This document shows positions 2 to 15,426 of a stretch of DNA of 37,348 nucleotides, one piece after another (positions within the stretch are counted from its first letter, which is position 1; every line of letters starts with the position of its first letter). Origin of the DNA: Bdellovibrionales bacterium (GTDB lineage Bacteria; Bdellovibrionota; Bdellovibrionia; Bdellovibrionales; JAMPXM01); NCBI GenBank assembly GCA_031416685.1, contig JANOUF010000321.1:1-37348 (forward strand), in the 5' to 3' direction. Both the position numbers and the translations under genes were made by a program. The notes below the pieces were generated by a model. It was given only the letters and a program-made list of their open reading frames with translations. It ran no database searches and was not told where the DNA came from.

Positions 2-1522
2 AAGTTAAAACGCTTCGGCTGGCGAATTGCTGTCATCACAGGATTTATACCACCTGCGCCTTTTCTAGAGATGCTTTCTCTTCGCATTTTACCGATTGCA
101 TGTGACATGCGTAAACTTGAACACGTCGATTACACTCCAGCGCCTGATATCGTTCACGAGGCAGCGGGACATGCGCCGATTATTTCTGATCCGGCATATT
201 CTTCCTATTTAAGAAAGTTCGGCGAGATAGCTCGGTACGTAATTTTCGCCAAAGAGGACGTCGATGTTTACAAAGCAGTTTTAGATCTATCGGAAATTAA
301 AGAGGATCCGGCTTCAACTGAAGAGCTGATCGCAAAAGCACAGAAAGCACTCGACGAGGCATCTGCGAAAGTCACTTACGTAAGCGAAGCGCAAGAGGTC
401 ACTCGACTTGGTTGGTGGACAACTGAATACGGACTCTTTAAAAAGGGTGATGAGTATTTGATTTATGGCGCTGGTCTGCTCTCGTCAGTTAGTGAGTCGT
501 ACAATTGTTTGGGAGATAAAGTTCCCAAGCTCCCGCTCACTATCGATTGTATTAAAATGGATTACGATATTACCAAACCGCAGCCGCAACTTTACTACAC
601 TGAAGATTTCAAAACGCTTGAAGCTGTTATTGAGGAGCTTGCGAATCGAATGGCGTATCGACGCGGCGGTGTTTACGGCCTTGAAAAAGCCAAGGAGGCG
701 CGCACCGAAACAACTACAGTTCTGGAAACTGGATTGCAGATTAGTGGCGTGCTCACAGAATTCCGCACAAAAGACGCTGAAAGCGTTTCCTTCATCAAAT
801 TCACGGGACCAGTTCAGATTTCATTTGCAGATAAACAATTGGAAGGCCACTCACCGTCCTATCACAAAGATGGATTCAGCACTCCGCTCGGGAAATTGAA
901 GAACTCAAAACTGAGTACGTCTTCACTTTCGCTTGAAGACTTAGAAGCATTCGGTTTTAAAGGCACGCAAAAAGGTCAACTTGAATTTGCGAGCGGCATC
1001 GTTGTTGAGGGATGTGTCCGTGAGGTTCTCAAGAAAAACGACAAGACATTGTTGATTGCATTTACTGATTGCACGATCACTAACGGCACTGAAATTCTCT
1101 TTATGCCAGAGTGGGGAACCTTCGACCTCGCATGCGGAGAAAAGATCGCCTCAGTGTTTGGCGGCGCTGCTGACCGAGCTGCTTACATTGAAGCGGAAAA
1201 AAATGTTCCGGAAAAACCTAGACGGCAAAAGCGCAATGTCTCTCCCGACAATGAAAAGCTGATCCCGCTTTACGCTAAAGTCCGTGAGCTGCGCGAATCC
1301 GGAAATATCGAATTGAAAACGATAGAAACTGTAGTCGCCTCACTAGATAAAACTTTTCCACACGACTGGTTGTTGCGACTTGAGTTGATTGAAATGCTTG
1401 AACCGAAACATTTGGCGCCTGAACTCACTGCTTCATTGCGAGCCAACCTTGATAGGATTTCGCGGACATCTGAGAATCTCCTGGTCCTCATTCAGCGCGG
1501 TCTTGCATTAATACGCCACTAA
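2..1522 (+). CDS. phhA: Aromatic amino acid (phenylalanine 4-) hydroxylase, long form with C-terminal extension; 5'-truncated by the window
   Basis: Frame is open from nt 2 (KLKRFGWRIAVITGFIPPAPFLEM...). It has the iron-ligand motifs PDIVHEAAGHAP and WWTTEYGL, plus IYGAGLLSS. Confidence 0.9.
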   Translation, partial: KLKRFGWRIAVITGFIPPAPFLEMLSLRILPIACDMRKLEHVDYTPAPDIVHEAAGHAPIISDPAYSSYLRKFGEIARYVIFAKEDVDVYKAVLDLSEIKEDPASTEELIAKAQKALDEASAKVTYVSEAQEVTRLGWWTTEYGLFKKGDEYLIYGAGLLSSVSESYNCLGDKVPKLPLTIDCIKMDYDITKPQPQLYYTEDFKTLEAVIEELANRMAYRRGGVYGLEKAKEARTETTTVLETGLQISGVLTEFRTKDAESVSFIKFTGPVQISFADKQLEGHSPSYHKDGFSTPLGKLKNSKLSTSSLSLEDLEAFGFKGTQKGQLEFASGIVVEGCVREVLKKNDKTLLIAFTDCTITNGTEILFMPEWGTFDLACGEKIASVFGGAADRAAYIEAEKNVPEKPRRQKRNVSPDNEKLIPLYAKVRELRESGNIELKTIETVVASLDKTFPHDWLLRLELIEMLEPKHLAPELTASLRANLDRISRTSENLLVLIQRGLALIRH

Positions 1523-1540
1523 CCTCATGATAAATCACCC

Positions 1541-2317
1541 ATGCAAGCTCCTAAAATCGCGCATCTCATTGAAGAACGAAAAGAAACGTTAGACGATTTT
1601 CTTAATGCGCATTTGTCTCTTCGCGAGTGCGCCCAGCTTCAGAAAAAACATCTCTTGCTTGATCTGGCTCTGAATCAGGTCAATGCATTCTGGGCGATTC
1701 CCGCACTATCGATTAAAAAAAGTTTCGACGTTTTGGATCAACTTGGATGGGACAACGCAAAAAGCTATCAGCAAAAACTCCCAATGGCGTTGCGGACCAA
1801 TTACCAGAAAGAAATTGAACGCCTAGTTGCTCAAAAGGTCGTCGGAATTTCGCAGATTTCAGAGCGCATCACGCCTGATCTCAAAGCGCAGTTAATCCGT
1901 GAAGCTCAAAGCGAGATCACCATCTATAGTCTTCGACAATCGTCTATAACTGACCTCACGTCGTCGGCACTCACTTACCTATTCGCAACGTGGATTTTCC
2001 AAGACGGCACTTTAAACGTGTTCGGAATCGGCCGAAGGATTGCTACGCTTTGGGCAAAGGACGATGCGGCCTCTAATTTTTTTCTCGGCAAGTCGTTAGG
2101 AAATGCGTTTTACTCAATCGCCCCTCCTGACCCAACAACATTTCAAATCGTACTCGCTACTGGAGTGACTCTTGTCGCAATCAGCGTCGTCAGCACAGTC
2201 GTTGCTGTCATCAGCATTCCGATTCGCAAGAAACTGGGCTTACAAAAGCGAAGTCTCAATCGACTGCTGGATTCGATTCACGATCGTTGGGTTCTAAAGA
2301 TTGCAAAAGGGAAATAG
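1541..2317 (+). CDS. Hypothetical membrane protein
   Basis: 258-aa ORF 18 nt after phhA, with a hydrophobic C-terminal segment (IVLATGVTLVAISVVSTVVAVISIPI). Confidence 0.7.
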   Translation: MQAPKIAHLIEERKETLDDFLNAHLSLRECAQLQKKHLLLDLALNQVNAFWAIPALSIKKSFDVLDQLGWDNAKSYQQKLPMALRTNYQKEIERLVAQKVVGISQISERITPDLKAQLIREAQSEITIYSLRQSSITDLTSSALTYLFATWIFQDGTLNVFGIGRRIATLWAKDDAASNFFLGKSLGNAFYSIAPPDPTTFQIVLATGVTLVAISVVSTVVAVISIPIRKKLGLQKRSLNRLLDSIHDRWVLKIAKGK

Positions 2318-2324
2318 CTACTGG

Positions 2325-3116
2325 TTAAAATGTCATACCCAGATTTATTTTAAGCACTGAGAAGCGCGGGAATTCTGAGATGAAATCAATTGCGTCGTTT
2401 ACGTTGTCTCGATCGGAGTTAGATACGTATTGAGTAAACCCAGTCTTTCTCTCTGTTTGTGATAGGGGTTGCGACCACACCGCCCAATCCACGCCGATAA
2501 TAAAATTGTCCTGAATGATCCACCGATTGCCAATACCGACAACGAATCCAATCGAGTTTAAAACTATCTCATCATACTCCGACGAATGCGGAACAGAGCG
2601 ATTGATGATGTCATTACCAAGCTTCACTTTGAACATGTGATAAGCGACACCGTAGTGATAATTGAAACTCGATTTGCCGAAGTGGCTTCGCATGACAAGC
2701 GAAAGCCTTTGATCAGTCATCCCTCCGAGGGACTCGAACAAGAACGGAACCGATAGTGAGCCGCGCACGTATTCAAGTTCGGCAGTTGTCTTTGGCGTGA
2801 ATCGCCAACCGACAGTAGCGCCGTATTTACTCGGCACAAATAAATCAAGTGGCGCATAAACGATCATCGCCAAAATCTTGCGTTCTAAATTGGTTTTAGT
2901 TGCTTGCTCTGGAGGAGTTTCAGTTTTGATCTCTTCCGATTTCACTTCGTCTGTCGGTTTTGAAATAGCGCCAGTAGTATCAGGCGTGTCGCCTGAGAGT
3001 GCCTCGTTGTATTCGTCGATTTTCTTTTGCTCTTCCGGGGTCGGCTTACGCGATTGCGCCTGTGCGGTTGTGGCACAGAAGGACAAACATAATGTCACAG
3101 TTAATATCCAGCGCAT
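2325..3116 (-). CDS. Secreted protein, probable small outer-membrane beta-barrel
   Basis: Signal peptide (..ATTAQA), a disordered linker, alternating amphipathic strands and a C-terminal ...LKINLGMTF. Confidence 0.65.
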   Translation of the reverse strand: MRWILTVTLCLSFCATTAQAQSRKPTPEEQKKIDEYNEALSGDTPDTTGAISKPTDEVKSEEIKTETPPEQATKTNLERKILAMIVYAPLDLFVPSKYGATVGWRFTPKTTAELEYVRGSLSVPFLFESLGGMTDQRLSLVMRSHFGKSSFNYHYGVAYHMFKVKLGNDIINRSVPHSSEYDEIVLNSIGFVVGIGNRWIIQDNFIIGVDWAVWSQPLSQTERKTGFTQYVSNSDRDNVNDAIDFISEFPRFSVLKINLGMTF

Positions 3117-3187
3117 GCAGGCACCTCAAGTAGAGAAGCATGCCATGGAGGGATCGTGGTGATAAGTGAAGAGGTCTTGAAGAATAG

Positions 3188-3215
3188 AAAAAGGCGCCGC
3201 TTTCGCGGCGCCTTT
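3188..3215 (-). terminator. Intrinsic terminator for the 3226-3831 gene
   Basis: aaaggcgccgc-tttc-gcggcgccttt perfect hairpin with a U tract on the minus strand. Confidence 0.85.
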
Positions 3216-3225
3216 AGTTGCGCTA

Positions 3226-3831
3226 TTAGTAAAGCTGATCGCCAGTTAGGTCGTCGGCGCCATCACAGTTTTGATCGCGGTCAGTGATTGGGTACGAAGT
3301 GCAAACTGGTGCGGAGCCGGCATCGCCAGAGCCACTGTCTGTTCCACCCGATGAACCATCTGTTCCACCAGTAGAACCGCCATCACCAGAACCACTGTCT
3401 GTTCCGCCGTCAGTACTACCATCGGTTCCACCATCAGTACCACCTGATGAACCATCGTCACCAGAGCCATCGCCTCCGCTATCATCCGATCCGTCTCGGC
3501 ATTCTCCGAGATAGTCTCGTTCACGATCGGCGTGCTTTTTGTTGTGGCCGTGGTTCATGTGGGCATCGACTGCGTTTTCGCTGATAGATATCGTATGTCG
3601 ATTATCAGGGTTTCCTGGAGGTACGTGACAAATCACAACCTTCAGTTCATTTCCCTTTTTGCCCTTCACTACAACCATGTGCTGTTCGAAATCTTCCGCA
3701 CTCGCCTTATCTAAATAGATAGGCTCCTGGTAAATTTGTCCATCTGCTGCGGTATACCCGACCCCTGAGTTACAGGCTGTCAGCGCTAAGCCGCAGAGTA
3801 GGAGTAATCCTAACTTACTGTCAGCTTTCAT
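3226..3831 (-). CDS. Lipoprotein with a Cys/His module and a Gly/Ser/Asp/Thr-rich tail
   Basis: ATG at 3831 follows GGAGG. Lipobox LALTA-C, module ICHVPPGNPDNRHTISISENAVDAHMNHG..DYLGEC, and GGTDG/SGSGDG repeats. Confidence 0.8.
   Translation of the reverse strand: MKADSKLGLLLLCGLALTACNSGVGYTAADGQIYQEPIYLDKASAEDFEQHMVVVKGKKGNELKVVICHVPPGNPDNRHTISISENAVDAHMNHGHNKKHADRERDYLGECRDGSDDSGGDGSGDDGSSGGTDGGTDGSTDGGTDSGSGDGGSTGGTDGSSGGTDSGSGDAGSAPVCTSYPITDRDQNCDGADDLTGDQLY
3310..3490 (-). repeat. Low-complexity coding repeats (GGTDG, GGTDSGSGD)
   Basis: Visible in the translation and as recurring ccactgtctgttcc / gatgaaccatc in the DNA. Confidence 0.75.
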
Positions 3832-10537: not shown

Positions 10538-12619
10538 ATGTCTGATTTTGTACTTCGAACATTGATGGCGGCGATCATTTCCATTCTTGGAGTTGTCGGC
10601 ACACAAATGTGGAGCAAGTCGAACCAAGTTCGAATCGCACCTGTCGATGCAAAACCTGTTGCCGAGATCAAACTCATTTTGAACGAAGTGCAGCGTCGTC
10701 CTGCGAATCGCTTAATTTGGCAACACGTCTATCCGGGCCAGGAACTTTACGCGGGTGAGGCCGTTCGTACCGCGGGTGATGCTGAAGTTGAAATCGAATT
10801 CCGTGAGCAGAAAGTAACCGTTCGACTAGATCCTTACTCGGTTATTGAAATTCAAGAAGGTTCGGATGGTCTGAATTTAGATTTCTTAAAAGGTAATGTG
10901 TTCATTGCGTCTGCGACCGATGCTCCGAATATCACAATGAGTTCTGGCGATCAGAAGTTAGCGATTGGTCAGAGCGAATTCCAAATGAGTAAGCAGAAGG
11001 CTACTGACGAAGTGTCAGTGAATGTTTTTAAAGGCAAGCCAAAAGTGGTTTCACAGAATGGTCAGACAAGCGCACTTCCAGATCTTAAGAAGTTGCGGAT
11101 ATTAAGTCCGCGACCGGGTGACGTCGCTTATGTAAAACCAGAGTCTGAAGAAACAGTGGTGTTTGAGTGGGAAGCGATTGATTCTGCTTACCAAGTTTAT
11201 CTTGAAGTCGGAAAGACGACTGAGAATCTGAAAGAAGTTTCATTGGCGACGGCTGCGGGTTCTGCTGGGCGAGTCAATGCAAAGCTTAATATCGGAAAAG
11301 GATATTACCGCTTAGTTGCAAGGAGCTCGCGTGGTGAGCTGAAGGAACTTAAAAGTTCTCCTACTCGCTACGAAGTCCGCGCGAAGGTTCCTCCTGTGCT
11401 TTTAGCTCCAGCAATTAATGCAATGGTGCAACCAGACCAGAGTGAGAGCCTTTCGTTTCAATGGTCAAATCCTGGCGACCTTGAGCAAATGCTTATCGAA
11501 GTTTCTTCGACTAAGGATATGAAACAGCGAATTCATTCTGAAGAGGTCGGACGCAATGTCGTCATAAAAGTTCCTGCATTTTCAAACTCAGGTCCGCTTT
11601 TTTGGCGCGTGAGTGGACAAATTCCAGGTGCGAAGACAGTTGTGTCGAGCGCGATTCAACAGTTTTTCTTACGCAACAGAGGAAAGAATCCGATGTTGCC
11701 GCCTGTGCTGAAAGCTCCTGTGAGCCAGTACACAGTCAATTTTGAGGAGATGCGCAATCAAGGCGTGACGCTGAACTGGATTCCAATTGCTGAAGCAAAG
11801 CTCTATACATTCTCGCTTTTGAAACTTGGTGGAGAAAAAGTTGCACAGCAAGATCAAGAAACGAAAGTTCCTGATCTAACGATTCGTGATTTGAAGCCAG
11901 GTATTTATCAGTGGTTTGTGACTGCGACCGATGAGTTTGGTGAGGCGACTGCTCCGTCTGAGAAATGGACATTTAGCATCGAGGGAGTTCCCACTCTAAC
12001 TTGGTCTGATGGACTTACGAACGCAAAGACGACTTACAAAGCTTTGAAGCCGCTTGCGCGGTTGAGCTGGCAGCGTGGTCCTGCAAATGCAAAGAGTTGG
12101 CGTGTGCGTATGTCGTCTACTCGCGAGCCGGCAAGTGATGGCGGTGGTTGGTACAATGTAAATGCACCGCAATTTGAGGCGAGACCTGAGACTGACGGCA
12201 CATATTATTTCGAGGCCGAAGCGTTGGATGAAAACGGTGTGGTCGTTGGTAAAACTGCGTTGCGTTCGCAAGAGTTCGTGCAATCTGCGGCTCCGGTTGC
12301 GCCTGAATTTACGGATGAGACTCCAGATCAAATCGAAGCTCGCGATGACGGATCGCTCGATATCGCATGGAAACCGGTCGCCGAAGCACGAGAGTATACT
12401 GTCTTGTTAAAAGCAGAAGACGGCACGACAGTTAAAACCGCAAAGACAACTTCCACTCGCGGCTCATTTAGCAAACTCAAACCCGGTCGTTTCTCAATCT
12501 CCCTTCAAGCAACCGACTCAATCGGCCGCTCCAGCGCCGAATCGCCGGCCCGCCCTCTCTCCGTCCCCGAATACTCCGACGTCCAAGCCCCCACCCTCCG
12601 CTCCATCAACGTAAAATAA
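10538..12619 (+). CDS. FecR-domain protein with multiple Fn3/Ig-like domains
   Basis: N-terminal anchor, the FecR-like stretch VQRR..W...LYAGEAVRT...VRLDPYSVIEI, and repeated 'F.W / Y.W.V.A' Fn3-like units. Confidence 0.8.
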   Translation: MSDFVLRTLMAAIISILGVVGTQMWSKSNQVRIAPVDAKPVAEIKLILNEVQRRPANRLIWQHVYPGQELYAGEAVRTAGDAEVEIEFREQKVTVRLDPYSVIEIQEGSDGLNLDFLKGNVFIASATDAPNITMSSGDQKLAIGQSEFQMSKQKATDEVSVNVFKGKPKVVSQNGQTSALPDLKKLRILSPRPGDVAYVKPESEETVVFEWEAIDSAYQVYLEVGKTTENLKEVSLATAAGSAGRVNAKLNIGKGYYRLVARSSRGELKELKSSPTRYEVRAKVPPVLLAPAINAMVQPDQSESLSFQWSNPGDLEQMLIEVSSTKDMKQRIHSEEVGRNVVIKVPAFSNSGPLFWRVSGQIPGAKTVVSSAIQQFFLRNRGKNPMLPPVLKAPVSQYTVNFEEMRNQGVTLNWIPIAEAKLYTFSLLKLGGEKVAQQDQETKVPDLTIRDLKPGIYQWFVTATDEFGEATAPSEKWTFSIEGVPTLTWSDGLTNAKTTYKALKPLARLSWQRGPANAKSWRVRMSSTREPASDGGGWYNVNAPQFEARPETDGTYYFEAEALDENGVVVGKTALRSQEFVQSAAPVAPEFTDETPDQIEARDDGSLDIAWKPVAEAREYTVLLKAEDGTTVKTAKTTSTRGSFSKLKPGRFSISLQATDSIGRSSAESPARPLSVPEYSDVQAPTLRSINVK

Positions 12620-12620
12620 A

Positions 12621-12644
12621 GGCGCCAGGCTCCATTTGGTAGCG
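12621..12644 (+). repeat. REP-like repeat copy 1
   Basis: GGCGCCAGGCTCCATTTGGTAGCG, 21/24 identical to the copy at 13375. It starts 1 nt after the FecR gene stop codon. Confidence 0.8.
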
Positions 12645-12660
12645 CACTAGCATTAAATTT

Positions 12661-13299
12661 CTAGAACAACTCGAGTTCCAGTTCGTTTTTTTTGCGAGTT
12701 ACTCGGTCAATTGGTAGGGAAAACTCTGCCTTCCCGAGAGCGTTCTTAATATCAACCACATGTTTGTCTTTCGGCTTTGTATTGAGCCATTTCAGCGTAC
12801 AGCCAATGTCTGGAAACAAAATCGTATCGTCCACAACTGGAATAAGGAGGAGTCGACGTCCCAGTAGTCCATGCAGTGTGGAAAACGGATAGTCTTCAAC
12901 GTTATCCGACATGCCAGCAGCCACCGGATTGCGGAAAAGGTATTTGTAAGCGTTTTGAAAATTGTGATGGTTTCGAATTAACGTTTTATGATGGCGTGTA
13001 CCGAAAGTTTGGTTAATCCGTCCAGATCGCTTGGTAATTTCTCTACTTACCATCCCCAACAAATATTCCATCGCACATGAAATATTTGCGTCCGGGGTCG
13101 AGAGCAAAAGGTGGAAATGGTTGTCCATGAGGACGAATGCATGAATCCGGAGGTTGAAAAGTTTCGTACAGAAATAAAGTCTATCTTCAAAAATTGACCA
13201 CACTTCTTCGGTCGGCAATCGAAACCAATCACGATTCAAGCAACGTCCAGTTATAAAATACGGATAGTCAGAACTTAAGATTACTTTTCTTCGCGGCAT
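12661..13299 (-). CDS. REP-associated tyrosine transposase (RAYT, HUH/Y1 IS200-like family)
   Basis: N-terminal MPRR..YFITGR, HUH motif AFVLMDNHFHLL, catalytic-Tyr motif YLFRNPVAAGM and YPFST. It is flanked by palindromic repeats. Confidence 0.9.
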   Translation of the reverse strand: MPRRKVILSSDYPYFITGRCLNRDWFRLPTEEVWSIFEDRLYFCTKLFNLRIHAFVLMDNHFHLLLSTPDANISCAMEYLLGMVSREITKRSGRINQTFGTRHHKTLIRNHHNFQNAYKYLFRNPVAAGMSDNVEDYPFSTLHGLLGRRLLLIPVVDDTILFPDIGCTLKWLNTKPKDKHVVDIKNALGKAEFSLPIDRVTRKKNELELELF

Positions 13300-13374
13300 G
13301 TTTCATCACAAGTGCAATAGTTCTGCTTCCACCGGCTCCAATAGATTACAAATGCACGCACGTTTGGTCCGACC

Positions 13375-13428
13375 GGCGCAAGGCTCCAATTGGTGGCGAA
13401 CTGCCGCCACCATTTGGTGCCTGGCGCC
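13375..13428. repeat. Inverted REP doublet (REPIN-like hairpin)
   Basis: GGCGCAAGGCTCCAATTGGTGGCG-aactgc-CGCCACCATTTGGTGCCTGGCGCC; the arms are 21/24 complementary. Confidence 0.85.
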
Positions 13429-13470
13429 TAAGGGAAGGGGCTTAATAGATAACGTGGAGCTTCCGATTTA

Positions 13471-13483
13471 GGAGCCTGACACC
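13471..13483 (-). repeat. REP core copy 4
   Basis: The minus strand reads GGTGTCAGGCTCC, 2 nt after the cyclase stop codon. Confidence 0.65.
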
Positions 13484-13485
13484 CG

Positions 13486-15426
13486 TTATGCGGAGATTTT
13501 GATTTTGTCGGCGGATTCGGAGGTGTAGTCGGAGTAGGGAGTGCTGACTTCGACCGGGTTGCCGGCGGCGTCGAAGTATCCGCGGACTTTGAGGAGTTTG
13601 ATTGCGTCGGCTTTGCCTTTTACTTCGGCGGCGCCGGCGTCTTCGGTGATGAAGCGTTCTGCGACTGCGCGAGCCGTTGCTTCACTCAATAAAATGTCCG
13701 CGCCAAAAGCTTTCGTTGAAGCTTCGATTCGCGATGCCATGTTCACAGTGTCACCGATGACCGTGTACTCCATGCGCTCGGTTGAACCAATGGTCCCCGA
13801 AATAGCTTCGCCAGAATGTACACCCATTCCAATTTTGATCGGCTCTTGCCCACGCGCAACTCTCAAATCATTTAACTTCGCAAGTGCAACACGCATTTCT
13901 AAACAAGCTTTCACCGCATACATCGGATCAGCACCCGTCGTTTGCGGCGCGCCCCACACTGCCATAATTGCGTCACCAACGAACTTATCCACAACACCGT
14001 GGTTCGCGGTGATAATACCAACCATCACTTGGAAATACTCGTTGAGCATTTCAACAACTTCTTCTGGCGTATGGCCTTCGCTGAATTTTGTAAATCCGCG
14101 AATATCACTAAAGAAGACCGTCACTTCTTTGCGGCTACCACCCAAGCTAACGTTACCTTTTAATAAGTCCTCAGTAATCGATGACCCATGGAACTTACTG
14201 AACATAGTTTTAACTTTGTCGCGCTCTTTCAGTCCCTCAACCATTGAGTTGAAAGCAATTGCAAGATCCGCAATCTCATCAAAACTGTTCACCTTAGCTT
14301 TAATATCAAAGTTACCCCGGCCGATACCTTCTGCAGCTTCGTTTAACTGCTCAATCGAAGTTGTAATCGTTAATGAAAACACCACGACCATGAAAAACGC
14401 CGCAGATAAAACATAGCCGGCAATAGTAAACGCTTCGACTCTCATTGTACGCGCAGGCTCTAAAATAAATTTCTCAGGAGCCTGTGCGATAACACTCGGA
14501 CCAAACGCAGTCTTACAGTAAGCACCAACAAACCATTCGTTGCTCTCTGGCTCAAGGTAACGTGTCTTCTGACCACGGCTACTCAAGCTCGTTGCCCGCA
14601 TGGCTTCGTCAACAATTGGCGACTTCGCAAGATTTTTGCCCTCAAGCACCAAACGATCATCGGCATGAGCGAGCAACTGACCATTCGAATCCACCAAAAA
14701 CAAAACGCGGACTCCCGAATGGGAAAATGCCTTTTGCAAACGATCCAATCGAATATCGGCAATCGCAATATGCTTTACCACGCCATTTTGATCTGGAAAT
14801 GGAACACCAATCGAGAACAATGGCACTCCACGCGGTAACGATGAGTTCTGAATATGAATTTTTTCTTTTTGAGCGAAGATCGATGAAACTGGAACAGGAA
14901 CCTCGCGCCTCAACCGATCTACGTAACTAGTATTAAGATCCTGCTCTTTAAAAAACTCTTCATTGGTTTTGCGTAAGTAAAGTTCGATCTTGCCTTTGTT
15001 ATAGTGATAGATCTCGACGTTAACAAGATCGAGATCTTTCGCGAGCATAAGATCCAACGACTCAACATCGGAGCCGCCGTCGTCTTTCAAAATAAAATTA
15101 GTCGCAGTACGAACCTTCTCGACGTAACCAAGCAACAACCCGTTCGTCTCAGTGGCTTTTGAGAACGCAAGCTCCGCGTTCGCGTCCTGTTGGCTTTTAC
15201 GAAACGTTTCTTCGAACATTTCTGAGCTCTTAATCGCAAGCGGAACGACCACCGCGGCAATCACCGCAGCAGTAGCTAAGACGAGCTTCACTAGAATGGG
15301 AATTCGGATCTTTGAAACCACATTACTAAATCGGAATAATCGAGACGAAAAATGATAATTCTCCTGTTGTTTTGCGTGCGATCTCGACCGAAGTCGGGCC
15401 AGTTTTAGCCTAGTCTGCCGTTTCAT
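13486..15426 (-). CDS. Membrane class III adenylate/guanylate cyclase with periplasmic Cache-like and HAMP domains (true start may be about 35 codons downstream)
   Basis: FFSDIRGFT, VVDKFVGDAIMA, EYTVIGDTVNMASRIE and VKGK (an adenylate-type specificity pattern), HAMP DEIADLAIAFNSM, and two TM helices. Confidence 0.93.
   Translation of the reverse strand: MKRQTRLKLARLRSRSHAKQQENYHFSSRLFRFSNVVSKIRIPILVKLVLATAAVIAAVVVPLAIKSSEMFEETFRKSQQDANAELAFSKATETNGLLLGYVEKVRTATNFILKDDGGSDVESLDLMLAKDLDLVNVEIYHYNKGKIELYLRKTNEEFFKEQDLNTSYVDRLRREVPVPVSSIFAQKEKIHIQNSSLPRGVPLFSIGVPFPDQNGVVKHIAIADIRLDRLQKAFSHSGVRVLFLVDSNGQLLAHADDRLVLEGKNLAKSPIVDEAMRATSLSSRGQKTRYLEPESNEWFVGAYCKTAFGPSVIAQAPEKFILEPARTMRVEAFTIAGYVLSAAFFMVVVFSLTITTSIEQLNEAAEGIGRGNFDIKAKVNSFDEIADLAIAFNSMVEGLKERDKVKTMFSKFHGSSITEDLLKGNVSLGGSRKEVTVFFSDIRGFTKFSEGHTPEEVVEMLNEYFQVMVGIITANHGVVDKFVGDAIMAVWGAPQTTGADPMYAVKACLEMRVALAKLNDLRVARGQEPIKIGMGVHSGEAISGTIGSTERMEYTVIGDTVNMASRIEASTKAFGADILLSEATARAVAERFITEDAGAAEVKGKADAIKLLKVRGYFDAAGNPVEVSTPYSDYTSESADKIKISA

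What the first reader, a model, noticed from the sequence alone, without database searches (positions are those of the whole stretch)
11880..13940. Mirror-symmetric synonymous-codon footprint centred on the RAYT/REP locus
Seen (hand counts): the last 45 codons of the FecR gene (12482-12616) end in C 30 times and in G/T only 6 times. The last 45 codons of the convergent cyclase (13489-13623) end in C 31 times and in G/T twice. Further into the same genes the bias reverses: 4/45 C-ending and 35/45 G/T-ending at 11882-12016, and 2/45 C-ending and 32/45 G/T-ending at 13801-13935. So on each strand running into a REP core there is a G/T-rich outer zone followed by a sharp C/A-rich zone of about 150-200 nt, and both reading frames stay intact. 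Two unrelated genes share the pattern, so protein function does not explain it. Established: RAYTs are HUH endonucleases that nick single-stranded DNA next to REP hairpins. Inference: REP-directed nicking or local DNA synthesis leaves a strand-specific mutational or selective halo in neighbouring host genes. This could be a visible trace of the still unclear host function of RAYTs. I do not know of a description of it, but I cannot check the literature.
Basis: partly seen in the sequence, partly recalled or inferred. Interest (0 to 1): 0.85.

Follow-up and report, generated by a model that had tools for sequence, protein, structure and literature searches.

The report
C-rich codon halo beside REP repeats
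Next to one family of small palindromic repeats (REPs, the partners of a RAYT transposase), host DNA is rewritten to C, and to A where C would change the protein, over about 40-290 bases on one strand without loss of the protein sequence; this looks like an undescribed trace of what these repeats do in the cell.

Summary
The last 45 codons of both genes flanking the RAYT/REP locus end in C 30 and 31 times, against a genome mean of 11.3, sd 3.4.

The pattern recurs genome-wide and is tied to the repeats. Only 22 of 3005 gene ends have 3 or fewer G/T in their last 25 third positions. At least 19 of these are followed within about 20 nt by a REP-like arm. The 2497 repeat-free gene ends show no bias.

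The halo always lies 5' of the arm, on the arm's own strand. It fades with distance: C at 4-fold sites falls from 0.89 to 0.40. It also occurs in non-coding DNA, at anti-oriented gene starts, and 5' of an arm lying in frame inside an intact gene.

Orthologues without the repeat have no halo. Two other genomes carrying the same REP/RAYT type show it, one with mirror halos around its own RAYT.

The REP linkage is well supported. The cause is not shown. I favour a REP-anchored, strand-specific mutation bias (0.5) over selection for a C-rich, G-poor flank such as a Rho loading site (0.3). My literature searches found no description of it.

The parts
10538..12619 (+). Gene A, 693 aa. A repeat-domain protein; no Pfam family reaches its cut-off, so the FecR label is not supported. 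Its C-terminus (...INVK) is shared with orthologues.
   Evidence: ORF; Pfam; orthologue tails
12329..12616 (+). Halo A. Third positions lose G and T; C rises towards the REP, and the last 45 codons are C30 A9 T4 G2. Change-point length 96 codons, strongest from about 12420.
12620..12648 (+). REP arm, starting 1 nt after the TAA of gene A. Core GGCGCCAGGCTCC followed by GGTAGCGC. Inverted partner at 13405-13429.
12661..13299 (-). RAYT-type Y1 (HUH) transposase gene, 212 aa. Its own tail abuts the REP arm in the reverse orientation and has no halo (C10 of 45).
   Evidence: Pfam PF01797; tail count
13375..13428 (.). Complete REP hairpin: arms of 24 nt, 88% complementary, 6 nt between them.
13469..13485 (-). 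REP arm on the - strand (core GGTGTCAGGCTCC), starting 3 nt after the TAA of gene B.
13489..13671 (-). Halo B. 61 codons with G/T at only 3% of third positions; the last 45 codons are C31 A12 G1 T1.
13486..15426 (-). Gene B, 646 aa, a HAMP + class III nucleotidyl cyclase. The orthologue in G012 ends at the same residue and has a normal tail (C14 of 45).

Best explanation
The C-rich tails are a REP-anchored, strand-specific compositional halo. On the 5' side of each arm of one REP superfamily, on the arm's own strand, free positions drift to C, and to A where C would change the amino acid. The arms have the form AAGG-N10-12-CC/AC followed by GGTAGCGC-type or GCGCGTCA-type inner palindromes. The drift extends about 40-290 nt, and purifying selection keeps the protein sequence.

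I read it as the accumulated product of a local mutational asymmetry created at the REP. Repeated strand-specific events at the arm boundary would load the complementary strand with G and T. Candidate events are RAYT (HUH) nicking with extension of the free 3'-OH into the flank, prolonged single-stranded exposure of the complementary strand, or repair synthesis.

Shown: the linkage to REP, strand, side and distance; independence from gene identity; and absence in REP-free orthologues. Inferred: that the force is mutational and that RAYT or REP processing causes it.
For: (1) Specificity. 22 of 3005 gene ends have <=3 G/T in the last 25 third positions, against 11 of 28,298 internal windows. At least 19 of the 22 are followed by a REP-like arm. 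The 2497 repeat-free ends are flat.

(2) Side and strand rule. The halo lies 5' of the arm. Tails that abut a reversed single arm have none (RAYT tail C10, C67 C11, C231 79..654 C13). The 3' side of single arms is unbiased.

(3) Context independence.
- Non-coding flank: C248.
- Anti-oriented gene starts carry the mirror image, with G/T-ending codons. TadA at C32 has 18 of 25. UDG at C191 has a REP-strand flank of C49 G15 per 100 nt. Three of 10 anti-oriented starts reach >=18 of 25, against 3.8% in the background.
- Three such flanks occur in G142.
- An arm lies in frame inside an intact PMT-family gene. The 49 codons 5' of it are C38 A7 G3 T1. The aligned codons of two orthologues are C16 G15 A11 T13 and C13 G19 A9 T7.

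(4) Monotonic decay from the arm boundary. At 4-fold sites C runs 0.89, 0.83, 0.71, 0.65, 0.40. G stays <=0.07 throughout. A rises distally to 0.36, above its background of 0.21. This fits fast transitions reaching further than a slower change of A to C.

(5) Saturation. In the first 10 codons G+T is 5 of 123 at 4-fold sites and T is 1 of 40 at NNY sites. This is more extreme than a collective, saturating trait should demand (inference).

(6) Not optimal codons. EF-Tu, ribosomal-protein and RpoB genes prefer T at 4-fold sites (mostly 0.38-0.49) with C at 0.19-0.24.

(7) Lineage-specific co-occurrence with the repeat. Six of 6 G000 orthologues of halo genes in G142/G190 have neither REP nor halo (C 5-15 of 45). 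Gene A and cyclase orthologues have normal tails.

(8) The two RAYT-flanking halos rank 1st and 3rd in length among the 21 halos with a usable change-point fit. Mirror halos also flank the RAYT of G190, and a halo flanks a RAYT of G142.

(9) Several halo loci have a canonical intrinsic terminator right after the arm (C219 18420..19922, C68, C285), so an extra Rho site is not obviously needed there.
Against: No substitution was polarised and no rate was measured. The nearest relatives share 37-74% amino-acid identity, so synonymous sites are saturated.

C far exceeds A at 4-fold sites next to the arm (0.89 vs 0.07). In GC-rich G190 the shift is from G to C. Both need transversions towards C, which simple deamination of an exposed strand does not give.

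Halos are more frequent and stronger in co-oriented gene tails (loose core motif, co-oriented n=21: mean C 53.7, G 31.1 per 150 nt). They are weaker at anti-oriented flanks (n=9: C 40.3, G 32.0) and non-coding flanks (n=4: C 40.5, G 38.0). Seven of 10 anti-oriented starts show nothing. A purely DNA-level process should not care about context.

The two flanks of one symmetric hairpin can differ (C408: C7 vs C22 of 45).

Many boundaries look sharp and lengths vary from 13 to 96 codons. That is not the smooth decay expected of variable repair tracts.

A second RAYT with its own REP family shows no halo in the adjacent co-oriented tail.

A few halos have no recognisable REP (C41, C31, C171).
Confidence: 0.5

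Rival explanations
1. Selection at the nucleic-acid level. The flank 5' of the REP arm is kept C-rich and G-poor because the transcript, or the single-stranded DNA, must be an unstructured C-rich tract. The most concrete version is a Rho loading (rut) site embedded in the coding tail, with the REP as pause site and 3'-end protector. Together they would terminate convergent or read-through transcription, including read-through into the RAYT.
For: The composition matches the textbook rut description: unstructured, C-rich, G-poor, about 80-90 nt (passage read in PMC6061677). In its last 150 nt gene A has C66 G23 and C95 has C70 G27.

With positions 1 and 2 fixed by the protein, full recoding of third positions to C is the only way to reach such values (inference).

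Rho is encoded in the genome.

Halos are commonest and strongest where a co-oriented gene reads into the arm. Eleven of 22 lie between convergent genes. TAA is the stop in 21 of 22, against 49% genome-wide.

A few halos sit at gene ends without a REP, one next to an intrinsic terminator (C41).

Some E. coli REPs act as partial Rho-dependent terminators (passages read in 10.64898/2026.03.23.713779).
Against: Halos occur where no co-oriented gene reads into the arm: the TadA, UDG and lipoprotein gene starts. One occurs in the middle of an intact gene.

The 2497 repeat-free ends show no trace of C enrichment, so this genome does not generally place rut sites in coding tails.

T is depleted as strongly as G, although Rho accepts U (recalled).

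The bias peaks at the arm boundary and saturates to 96-98%.

Several loci have an intrinsic terminator directly after the arm.

In E. coli the C>G enrichment reported is mild and lies downstream of REPs, not upstream (PMC6061677 passage).

The tail plus REP of gene A is not predicted to be unusually unstructured (z = 0.44).
Confidence: 0.3
2. Insertion preference. C-rich tracts came first, and the REPs (through the RAYT) insert preferentially at their 3' edge.
For: Arms start 0-3 nt after the stop at many loci, and TAA is the stop in 21 of 22 halos. This suggests some target choice. IS200/IS605-type enzymes insert next to short specific sequences in single-stranded DNA (recalled).
Against: Tracts with 0-3 G/T in 25 third positions are almost absent where there is no repeat: 11 of 28,298 internal windows, and at most 3 of the 22 such gene ends lack a REP-like arm.

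Orthologues of halo genes lack such tracts in 6 of 6 cases, plus gene A, the cyclase and the PMT gene. There is therefore no pool of pre-existing targets, and chance cannot make them.
Confidence: 0.05
3. Foreign or artefactual origin. The tails would be imported by recombination from a donor with other codon usage, be an assembly chimera at repeats, or reflect translational selection for fast codons before the hairpin.
For: The genome is a 450-contig draft and many halos lie near contig ends.
Against: The same pattern is seen in G190, a 10-contig genome that is 99% complete, and in G142.

The tails encode the ancestral protein end.

No organism's codon usage excludes G and T altogether (inference).

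Highly expressed genes here prefer T, not C, at 4-fold sites.

Non-coding and anti-oriented halos cannot be codon selection.
Confidence: 0.03

Closest known systems
REP / REPIN elements with their RAYT (Y1 HUH transposase, IS200/IS605-like)
   Same: A RAYT gene (PF01797) is flanked by inverted REP arms, and the same arms are dispersed through the genome, mostly just after genes. Cognate RAYT homologues flanked by the same arm type occur in G142 and G190.
   Different: No compositional footprint in the neighbouring host DNA is mentioned in what I saw of the REP/RAYT papers returned (titles and abstract starts only), nor in the passages read. Here the flank, not the element, is the finding.
Rho utilisation (rut) sites: C>G tracts of Rho-dependent terminators, and the mild C>G enrichment near E. 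coli REPs
   Same: A C-rich, G-poor tract of roughly 80-200 nt next to a stable hairpin at gene ends. Rho is present.
   Different: In E. coli the enrichment is mild and downstream of the REP. Here it is upstream, inside coding sequence, saturating, also depleted in T, graded from the arm boundary, and found in anti-oriented and intragenic settings.
Strand compositional asymmetry from single-stranded exposure: bacterial GC/AT skew and the gradient of A/C-rich, G-poor third positions along vertebrate mitochondrial DNA (recalled, not from a call)
   Same: One strand becomes G/T-rich and its complement C/A-rich at free sites. G is almost eliminated, and there is a gradient with distance from a hairpin-type landmark.
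   Different: The scale is about 100-300 nt around a dispersed repeat rather than a replichore or a genome. C is favoured over A close to the arm, which deamination alone does not predict.
Rolling-circle initiation by HUH enzymes: nick, free 3'-OH, strand-displacement synthesis (recalled)
   Same: It would renew exactly the strand that is G/T-rich here: the strand 3' of the arm's complement, pointing away from the REP.
   Different: No nick or synthesis was observed. This is a mechanistic analogy only.

Membership tests
REP/REPIN-RAYT system | A RAYT gene with the Y1/HUH transposase domain | tested here: met
   PF01797 Y1_Tnp, 24.9 bits against a cut-off of 23, residues 44-99. HUH-like HFH and a downstream Tyr are visible in the translation.
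REP/REPIN-RAYT system | The RAYT is flanked by REP sequences in inverted orientation | tested here: met
   Arms 12620-12644 / 13405-13429 (84% complementary) and 12621-12633 / 13471-13483. Full hairpin at 13375-13428.
REP/REPIN-RAYT system | The same short palindromic sequence is dispersed in many, mostly extragenic, copies | tested here: met
   26 exact copies of GGYGYCAGGCWCC in 19 contigs. Related arm families appear. This is a lower bound, because the draft breaks at repeats.
REP/REPIN-RAYT system | The RAYT cleaves or binds its cognate REP as single-stranded DNA | not testable with these tools
   Needs biochemistry.
Rho-dependent terminator (rut + pause) | A C-rich, G-poor tract of about 80 nt or more in the transcript | tested here: met
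   C66 G23 (gene A) and C57 G31 (gene B) in the last 150 nt.
Rho-dependent terminator (rut + pause) | It lies at the end of a transcription unit, on the sense transcript | tested here: inconclusive
   True for most halos (11 convergent, 7 tandem, 4 at contig ends). Not true for the intragenic case or for anti-oriented starts.
Rho-dependent terminator (rut + pause) | Termination depends on Rho (bicyclomycin-sensitive 3' ends) | not testable with these tools
   Rho is encoded. No RNA run holds the stretch.
Mutational strand asymmetry (single-stranded exposure type) | Complementary biases on the two strands at unconstrained sites, independent of gene orientation | tested here: inconclusive
   Mirror-image codon bias in 3 of 10 anti-oriented starts, plus UDG, the intragenic case and non-coding flanks. 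It is weaker and rarer than in co-oriented tails.
Mutational strand asymmetry (single-stranded exposure type) | A spectrum dominated by G>A and T>C on the depleted strand's complement | tested here: inconclusive
   The distal halo fits: A 0.36, G 0.07, T 0.17 at 4-fold sites. The proximal halo is 0.89 C, which also needs A>C or G>C.
Mutational strand asymmetry (single-stranded exposure type) | A raised, strand-biased rate of new mutations in the halo | not testable with these tools
   No close relatives. Only a handful of strain differences were seen in the one run that covers the locus.

The most novel reading that the evidence does not exclude
REP arms are sites of recurrent, RAYT-dependent, strand-specific DNA processing in vivo: a nick followed by outward repair or displacement synthesis, or long-lived single-stranded DNA. 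This processing locally raises and skews the mutation rate. Each long-resident REP would then recode up to about 300 nt of whatever host DNA lies on its 5' side. The halo would be a readable record of RAYT activity, of REP age, and, as ghost halos, of lost REPs.
Probability: 0.4. Interest if true: 0.9.

Novelty: new variant of a known kind. Interest (0 to 1): 0.8.

Why it matters
What REPs and RAYTs do for or to their hosts has been open since the elements were described. The papers seen here still list chromosome organisation, mRNA decay and termination as competing ideas (abstract and passages read).

A strong, side- and strand-specific footprint in neighbouring host sequence is a new kind of evidence. 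It says that something directional happens at the arm boundary, and that it reaches a defined distance into the flank.

If the footprint is mutational, it would be a rare case of a resident mobile element reshaping host codon usage locally. It would give a sequence-only assay for RAYT activity and REP age. If it is selective, it would show that hosts recode coding tails to build a functional module with the REP. That would be an unusually strong case of selection on synonymous sites.

Either way it gives concrete loci and predictions for experiments. It also matters for annotation and for codon-usage or gene-transfer scans, which would flag these tails as foreign.

Tried and rejected
Translational selection for optimal codons is rejected. 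EF-Tu, ribosomal-protein and RpoB genes prefer T at 4-fold sites, and halos occur in non-coding and anti-oriented DNA.

The outer G/T-rich zone as part of the pattern is rejected as not general.

Faster protein evolution in the halo was not seen for gene A. Tail/body identity ratios are 1.13, 0.95 and 1.32 for G000 against L002, L003 and L008. They are 1.09, 1.38 and 1.40 among those three. The rows for L005-L009 in that call were wrong ORFs picked by my longest-ORF rule and were ignored. The G011 row was ignored for the same reason.

A search for close relatives to polarise substitutions failed:
- Among 41 genomes (G000 included) the best non-self match to gene A has 37% identity.
- The metagenome-contig scan found no relative.
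- Of the sequencing runs, only one (possibly the source sample) holds most of the stretch. No RNA holder is listed.
- The laid contigs gave a few strain differences and no REP-free form. Parts without cover are not evidence.

The wider scan for the arm 15-mer found it in 7 of 201 genomes of the order and 8 of 401 of the phylum sample, G000 included in both. Most are single chance-like matches without a halo. G267 has REP-like hairpins with weak or no bias.

The E. coli comparison was dropped. I fetched 50 kb of K-12, but REP features are not listed there, so whether classical REPs have halos was not tested.

Rfam gave only sub-threshold miRNA-like matches to the hairpin. The RNA fold of tail plus arm gave z = 0.44.

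A diversity-generating retroelement target region was considered and set aside, because the halo conserves amino acids rather than diversifying them. No template repeat was looked for beyond.

Caveats on my own counts:
- ORFs come from a crude caller: longest ATG/GTG/TTG ORFs of 100 aa or more, made non-overlapping greedily.
- One search kept 2607 of the 3005 ORFs. It dropped those under 130 codons, those within 40 nt of a contig end, and those with repeat words in the last 300 nt.
- The 22 halos were chosen by their C count and a repeat downstream. Their composition describes the halo and does not test it.
- For one of the 22 (C342) the change-point fit failed and its length was not used.

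Literature. (terms on RAYT/REP/REPIN with codon, flanking, composition, skew, Rho-dependent, C-rich) returned no paper whose title or abstract start describes such a footprint. I read passages only of PMC6061677 and 10.64898/2026.03.23.713779, and only listings of the others. Supplements were not consulted. This is absence in these searches, not proof that it is unpublished.

Full report
**1. The observation**

The window is contig C321 of a 3.38-Mb, 450-contig draft genome with 47.5% G+C. Between 10.5 and 15.4 kb lie three genes:
- a 693-aa gene on the + strand (gene A);
- a 212-aa gene on the - strand;
- a 646-aa gene on the - strand (gene B).

Pfam identifies the middle gene as a Y1 (IS200-like, HUH) transposase: PF01797, 24.9 bits against a cut-off of 23. 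Gene B is a HAMP + nucleotidyl cyclase.

The transposase gene is flanked by inverted REP arms: 12620-12648, a complete hairpin at 13375-13428, and an arm on the - strand at 13469-13485. The outer arms start 1 and 3 nt after the TAA stops of genes A and B.

All four hand counts reproduce exactly:

| Region | Strand | C | A | G | T |
|---|---|---|---|---|---|
| 12482-12616 (tail of A) | + | 30 | 9 | 2 | 4 |
| 13489-13623 (tail of B) | - | 31 | 12 | 1 | 1 |
| 11882-12016 (outer, A) | + | 4 | 6 | 14 | 21 |
| 13801-13935 (outer, B) | - | 2 | 11 | 13 | 19 |

**2. Is it more than chance?**

I called 3005 ORFs of 100 aa or more in the genome with a crude caller. A 45-codon window then has mean C of 11.3 (sd 3.4). 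Of 54,378 sampled windows, 10 reach C>=28 and 8 reach C+A>=39. None of the other 24 ORFs of the window exceeds 21 C in its tail. The inner zones are therefore extreme outliers.

The outer G/T-rich zones are not. Among 213 ORFs of 600 codons or more, 35% contain a window with G/T>=32 and 8% one with G/T>=35. Gene A as a whole has 58% G/T at third positions. No such zone appears in the average of 110 repeat-adjacent gene ends. It is also absent just outside the other halos, where G/T is 0.33-0.67 in 21 of 22.

**3. It is a genome-wide property of one kind of repeat**

The most C-rich windows of the genome sit almost all at gene 3' ends. Almost all of those are followed, within 0-20 nt of the stop, by REP-like sequence.

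The 19 gene ends with a copy within 400 nt downstream have mean C 22.4 of 45, against 11.5 for all other ends.
- With repeats defined blindly as 14-mers present five or more times, 110 repeat-adjacent ends have C3 = 0.42 in the last 10 codons. This decays to background by about 60-70 codons. The 2497 repeat-free ends are flat at 0.24-0.26 (Mann-Whitney p = 4e-11).
- A stricter score, 3 or fewer G/T in the last 25 third positions, is met by 22 of 3005 gene ends and by 11 of 28,298 internal windows.
- At least 19 of those 22 ends are followed by an arm of a few related families. Those families begin AAGG or GG, then YRY, and most contain GGTAGCGC.

Other repeat families show no bias. These include a TTCAGCGGCGCCGCTGAA palindrome (the most abundant), GATATC-type and GAATTC...GTCGAC-type repeats, and AAGGTGACACGCACCTT.

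**4. The halo follows the arm, not the gene**

The bias lies on the 5' side of the arm, on the arm's own strand.

- Reversed arms. Gene tails that abut a single arm in the reverse orientation have none: the RAYT's own tail has C10, C67 has C11, and C231 79..654 has C13. The 3' side of single arms is unbiased.
- Non-coding DNA. The 60-70 nt before an arm in C248 are almost purely C and A.
- Anti-oriented gene starts. These show the mirror image, with G/T-ending codons in the gene.
  - The 29-nt spacer before TadA (C32) is C15 G1 A12 T1, and its first 25 codons have 18 G/T.
  - The region before and into UDG (C191) is C49 G15 per 100 nt on the arm strand.
  - Systematically, 3 of 10 anti-oriented starts within 120 nt of an arm reach 18 or more G/T of 25, against 3.8% of all genes. 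The other seven do not.
- An intragenic arm. In C219 an arm lies in frame inside an intact 509-aa PMT-family membrane protein. Orthologues in G012, G004 and G011 match it along nearly its whole length (query residues 5-507, 14-500 and 6-498 of 509).
  - The arm sits in a variable loop.
  - The 49 conserved codons 5' of it read C38 A7 G3 T1.
  - The aligned codons of the orthologues read C16 G15 A11 T13 and C13 G19 A9 T7.

The halo is thus tied to neither a stop codon nor a transcript end.

**5. Anatomy of the halo**

I chose 22 halos by their C count and a repeat downstream, so these figures describe the halo rather than test it.

| Site class | Last 40 codons of the halo genes | Body of the same genes |
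|---|---|---|
| 4-fold | C 0.71, A 0.13, G 0.08, T 0.08 | C 0.23, A 0.21, G 0.23, T 0.32 |
| NNY | C 0.91 | C 0.50 |
| NNR | A 0.79 | A 0.59 |
| Leu | CTN 0.93 | CTN 0.62 |
| Arg | CGN 1.00 | CGN 0.89 |

Amino-acid use shifts as well. Thr, Ser, His and Pro are enriched; Met, Cys, Phe, Tyr and Glu are depleted. The stop is TAA in 21 of 22 halos, against 49% genome-wide.

Change-point lengths run from 13 to 96 codons, with a median near 40. The two halos of this window (96 and 61 codons) rank first and third among the 21 with a usable fit.

Within halos there is a gradient at 4-fold sites:

| Codons from the stop | C | A |
|---|---|---|
| 0-10 | 0.89 | 0.07 |
| 10-20 | 0.83 | 0.11 |
| 20-30 | 0.71 | 0.11 |
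| 30-45 | 0.65 | 0.23 |
| 45-100 | 0.40 | 0.36 |

G stays at or below 0.07 throughout. The distal part therefore looks like G>A plus T>C. The proximal part also needs A>C.

The protein is not visibly degraded. The tail of gene A is as similar to its orthologues as their tails are to each other.

**6. Relatives**

Gene A orthologues in three other genera end at the same ...INVK and have 10, 11 and 5 C in the last 45 codons. The cyclase orthologue in G012, where synteny is kept, has 14.

The arm 15-mer is rare in the order (7 of 201 genomes, G000 included). G142, another genus of the same family, has 22 copies.
- There, seven gene tails before arms have C 22-36 of 45 with very few G/T. An eighth, a 61-codon ORF, has C16.
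- Three arms there have C/A-rich flanks in front of anti-oriented gene starts.

Six genes carry a halo in G142 or G190 and have orthologues in G000 at 47-74% identity. In all six the G000 copy has no REP and no halo (C 13, 14, 5, 15, 10, 10).

G142 and G190 also encode RAYT homologues (53% and 47% identity) flanked by this arm type. G012 gave only a marginal hit. G009 and G011 gave none with this query, but they are 57% and 88% complete.

Around the G190 RAYT both neighbouring genes carry halos.

A second RAYT paralogue in G000 (C243, 44% identity) has its own REP type, and the adjacent tail has no halo. The effect is thus family-specific or age-dependent.

**7. What it is not**

- Not optimal codon usage. 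EF-Tu, ribosomal-protein and RpoB genes prefer T, not C, at 4-fold sites.
- Not a chimeric assembly or an imported segment. The tails encode the ancestral protein ends, and the pattern is present in a 10-contig genome.
- Not insertion next to pre-existing tracts. Such tracts hardly exist without a repeat, and orthologues lack them.

**8. Mechanism**

Two readings remain.

(a) A mutational asymmetry anchored at the arm. Evidence for it:
- the strict side and strand rule;
- the decay from the arm boundary;
- near-complete saturation;
- occurrence in anti-oriented, non-coding and intragenic settings;
- long halos at RAYT-flanking arms.

HUH chemistry offers a route (recalled, not tested). A nick at the 3' edge of the arm's complement leaves a 3'-OH pointing into the flank. 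Repeated extension or exposure would renew or damage exactly the strand that is G/T-rich.

The A/C-rich, G-poor third positions of vertebrate mitochondrial genes (recalled) show that single-strand exposure alone can nearly eliminate G.

Evidence against it:
- the preference for C over A near the arm, and the G-to-C shift in G190, need transversions;
- halos are stronger and commoner in co-oriented tails than elsewhere;
- the two flanks of one hairpin can differ;
- boundaries are often sharp.

(b) Selection for a C-rich, G-poor tract, most concretely a Rho loading site that works with the REP.
- For: the composition fits and Rho is present. This reading would also explain the preference for C and the excess in co-oriented tails.
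- Against: it does not explain the anti-oriented and intragenic halos.
- Against: repeat-free ends show no C enrichment at all.
- Against: T is depleted as strongly as G.
- Against: halos occur in front of arms that are directly followed by intrinsic terminators.
- Against: in E. coli the reported C>G enrichment is mild and lies downstream of REPs (passage in PMC6061677).

I put (a) at 0.5, (b) at 0.3, insertion preference at 0.05, artefact or import at 0.03, and the rest on something not thought of. A transcription-coupled variant of (a) would reconcile the context dependence. In it, polymerases stalled at the arm trigger repair synthesis of the template strand. It is pure inference.

**9. 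Novelty**

Searches on RAYT/REP/REPIN combined with codon, flanking, composition, skew, Rho-dependent and C-rich returned no paper whose title or abstract start describes such a footprint. The passages read in two papers treat REP function at the RNA level and mention only the mild downstream C>G skew.

I therefore rate it a new, well-replicated property of a known element, with high interest. It is strong, simple to score from sequence alone, and bears directly on the unresolved question of what REPs and RAYTs do.

Noticed in passing
G000 contig C219 12749-14278 (locus L075 250-1776): A REP arm lies in frame inside an intact PMT-family glycosyltransferase gene. It is translated as part of a variable loop between conserved hydrophobic segments, and orthologues match the gene on both sides of it. 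This recalls the in-frame palindromic elements of Rickettsia (recalled).
   Followed up: yes
G000 contig C243 452-1081: A second RAYT paralogue (44% identity) is flanked by its own REP type (AAGGTGCCCGGTTCA...TTTTTTGCGAC). The co-oriented neighbouring gene tail (1148-3289, - strand) has no halo.
   Followed up: partly
genome-wide in G000: At least five further short repeat families sit just after stop codons without any codon halo. They include a TTCAGCGGCGCCGCTGAA palindrome (about 36 copies), GATATC-based tandem-like repeats, a GAATTC...GTCGAC palindrome, AAGGTGACACGCACCTT and CCGCGCCGGCGCGG.
   Followed up: no
G000 C41 20086-21426 (-), C31 1055-1444 (-), C171 1612-2727 (+), C199 10426-11592 (+): Halo-like C-rich tails occur without a recognisable arm of the halo families. 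C41 is followed by a canonical intrinsic terminator, and C171 and C199 by other palindromes. They may be ghosts of lost REPs or a REP-independent cause.
   Followed up: partly
window 12616-12623 and 13483-13488; 22 halo loci: Arms of the halo families start 0-3 nt after the stop codon at many loci, and the stop is TAA in 21 of 22 (49% genome-wide). The A-run at the 5' end of the arm seems to overlap the stop, which hints at a target preference or a G-avoidance effect on the stop itself.
   Followed up: partly
window 10538-12619: Gene A has no FecR match. Only sub-threshold Y_Y_Y, SusE and PKD hits were found, and it has orthologues of about 690-770 aa in several genera that end in a conserved ...SDV.AP.L..I.VK motif.
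   Followed up: partly
G000 contig C55 2699-3928: The Rho gene sits in an open frame of 595 aa against a 415-position family model, so it probably carries an N-terminal extension.
   Followed up: no
run X1, loose ends at window 12617: Two contigs of the metagenome match the REP arm from 12617 onward. Before it they carry a different, C/A-only sequence. These look like further REP copies with halos that are not in the draft genome.
   Followed up: no
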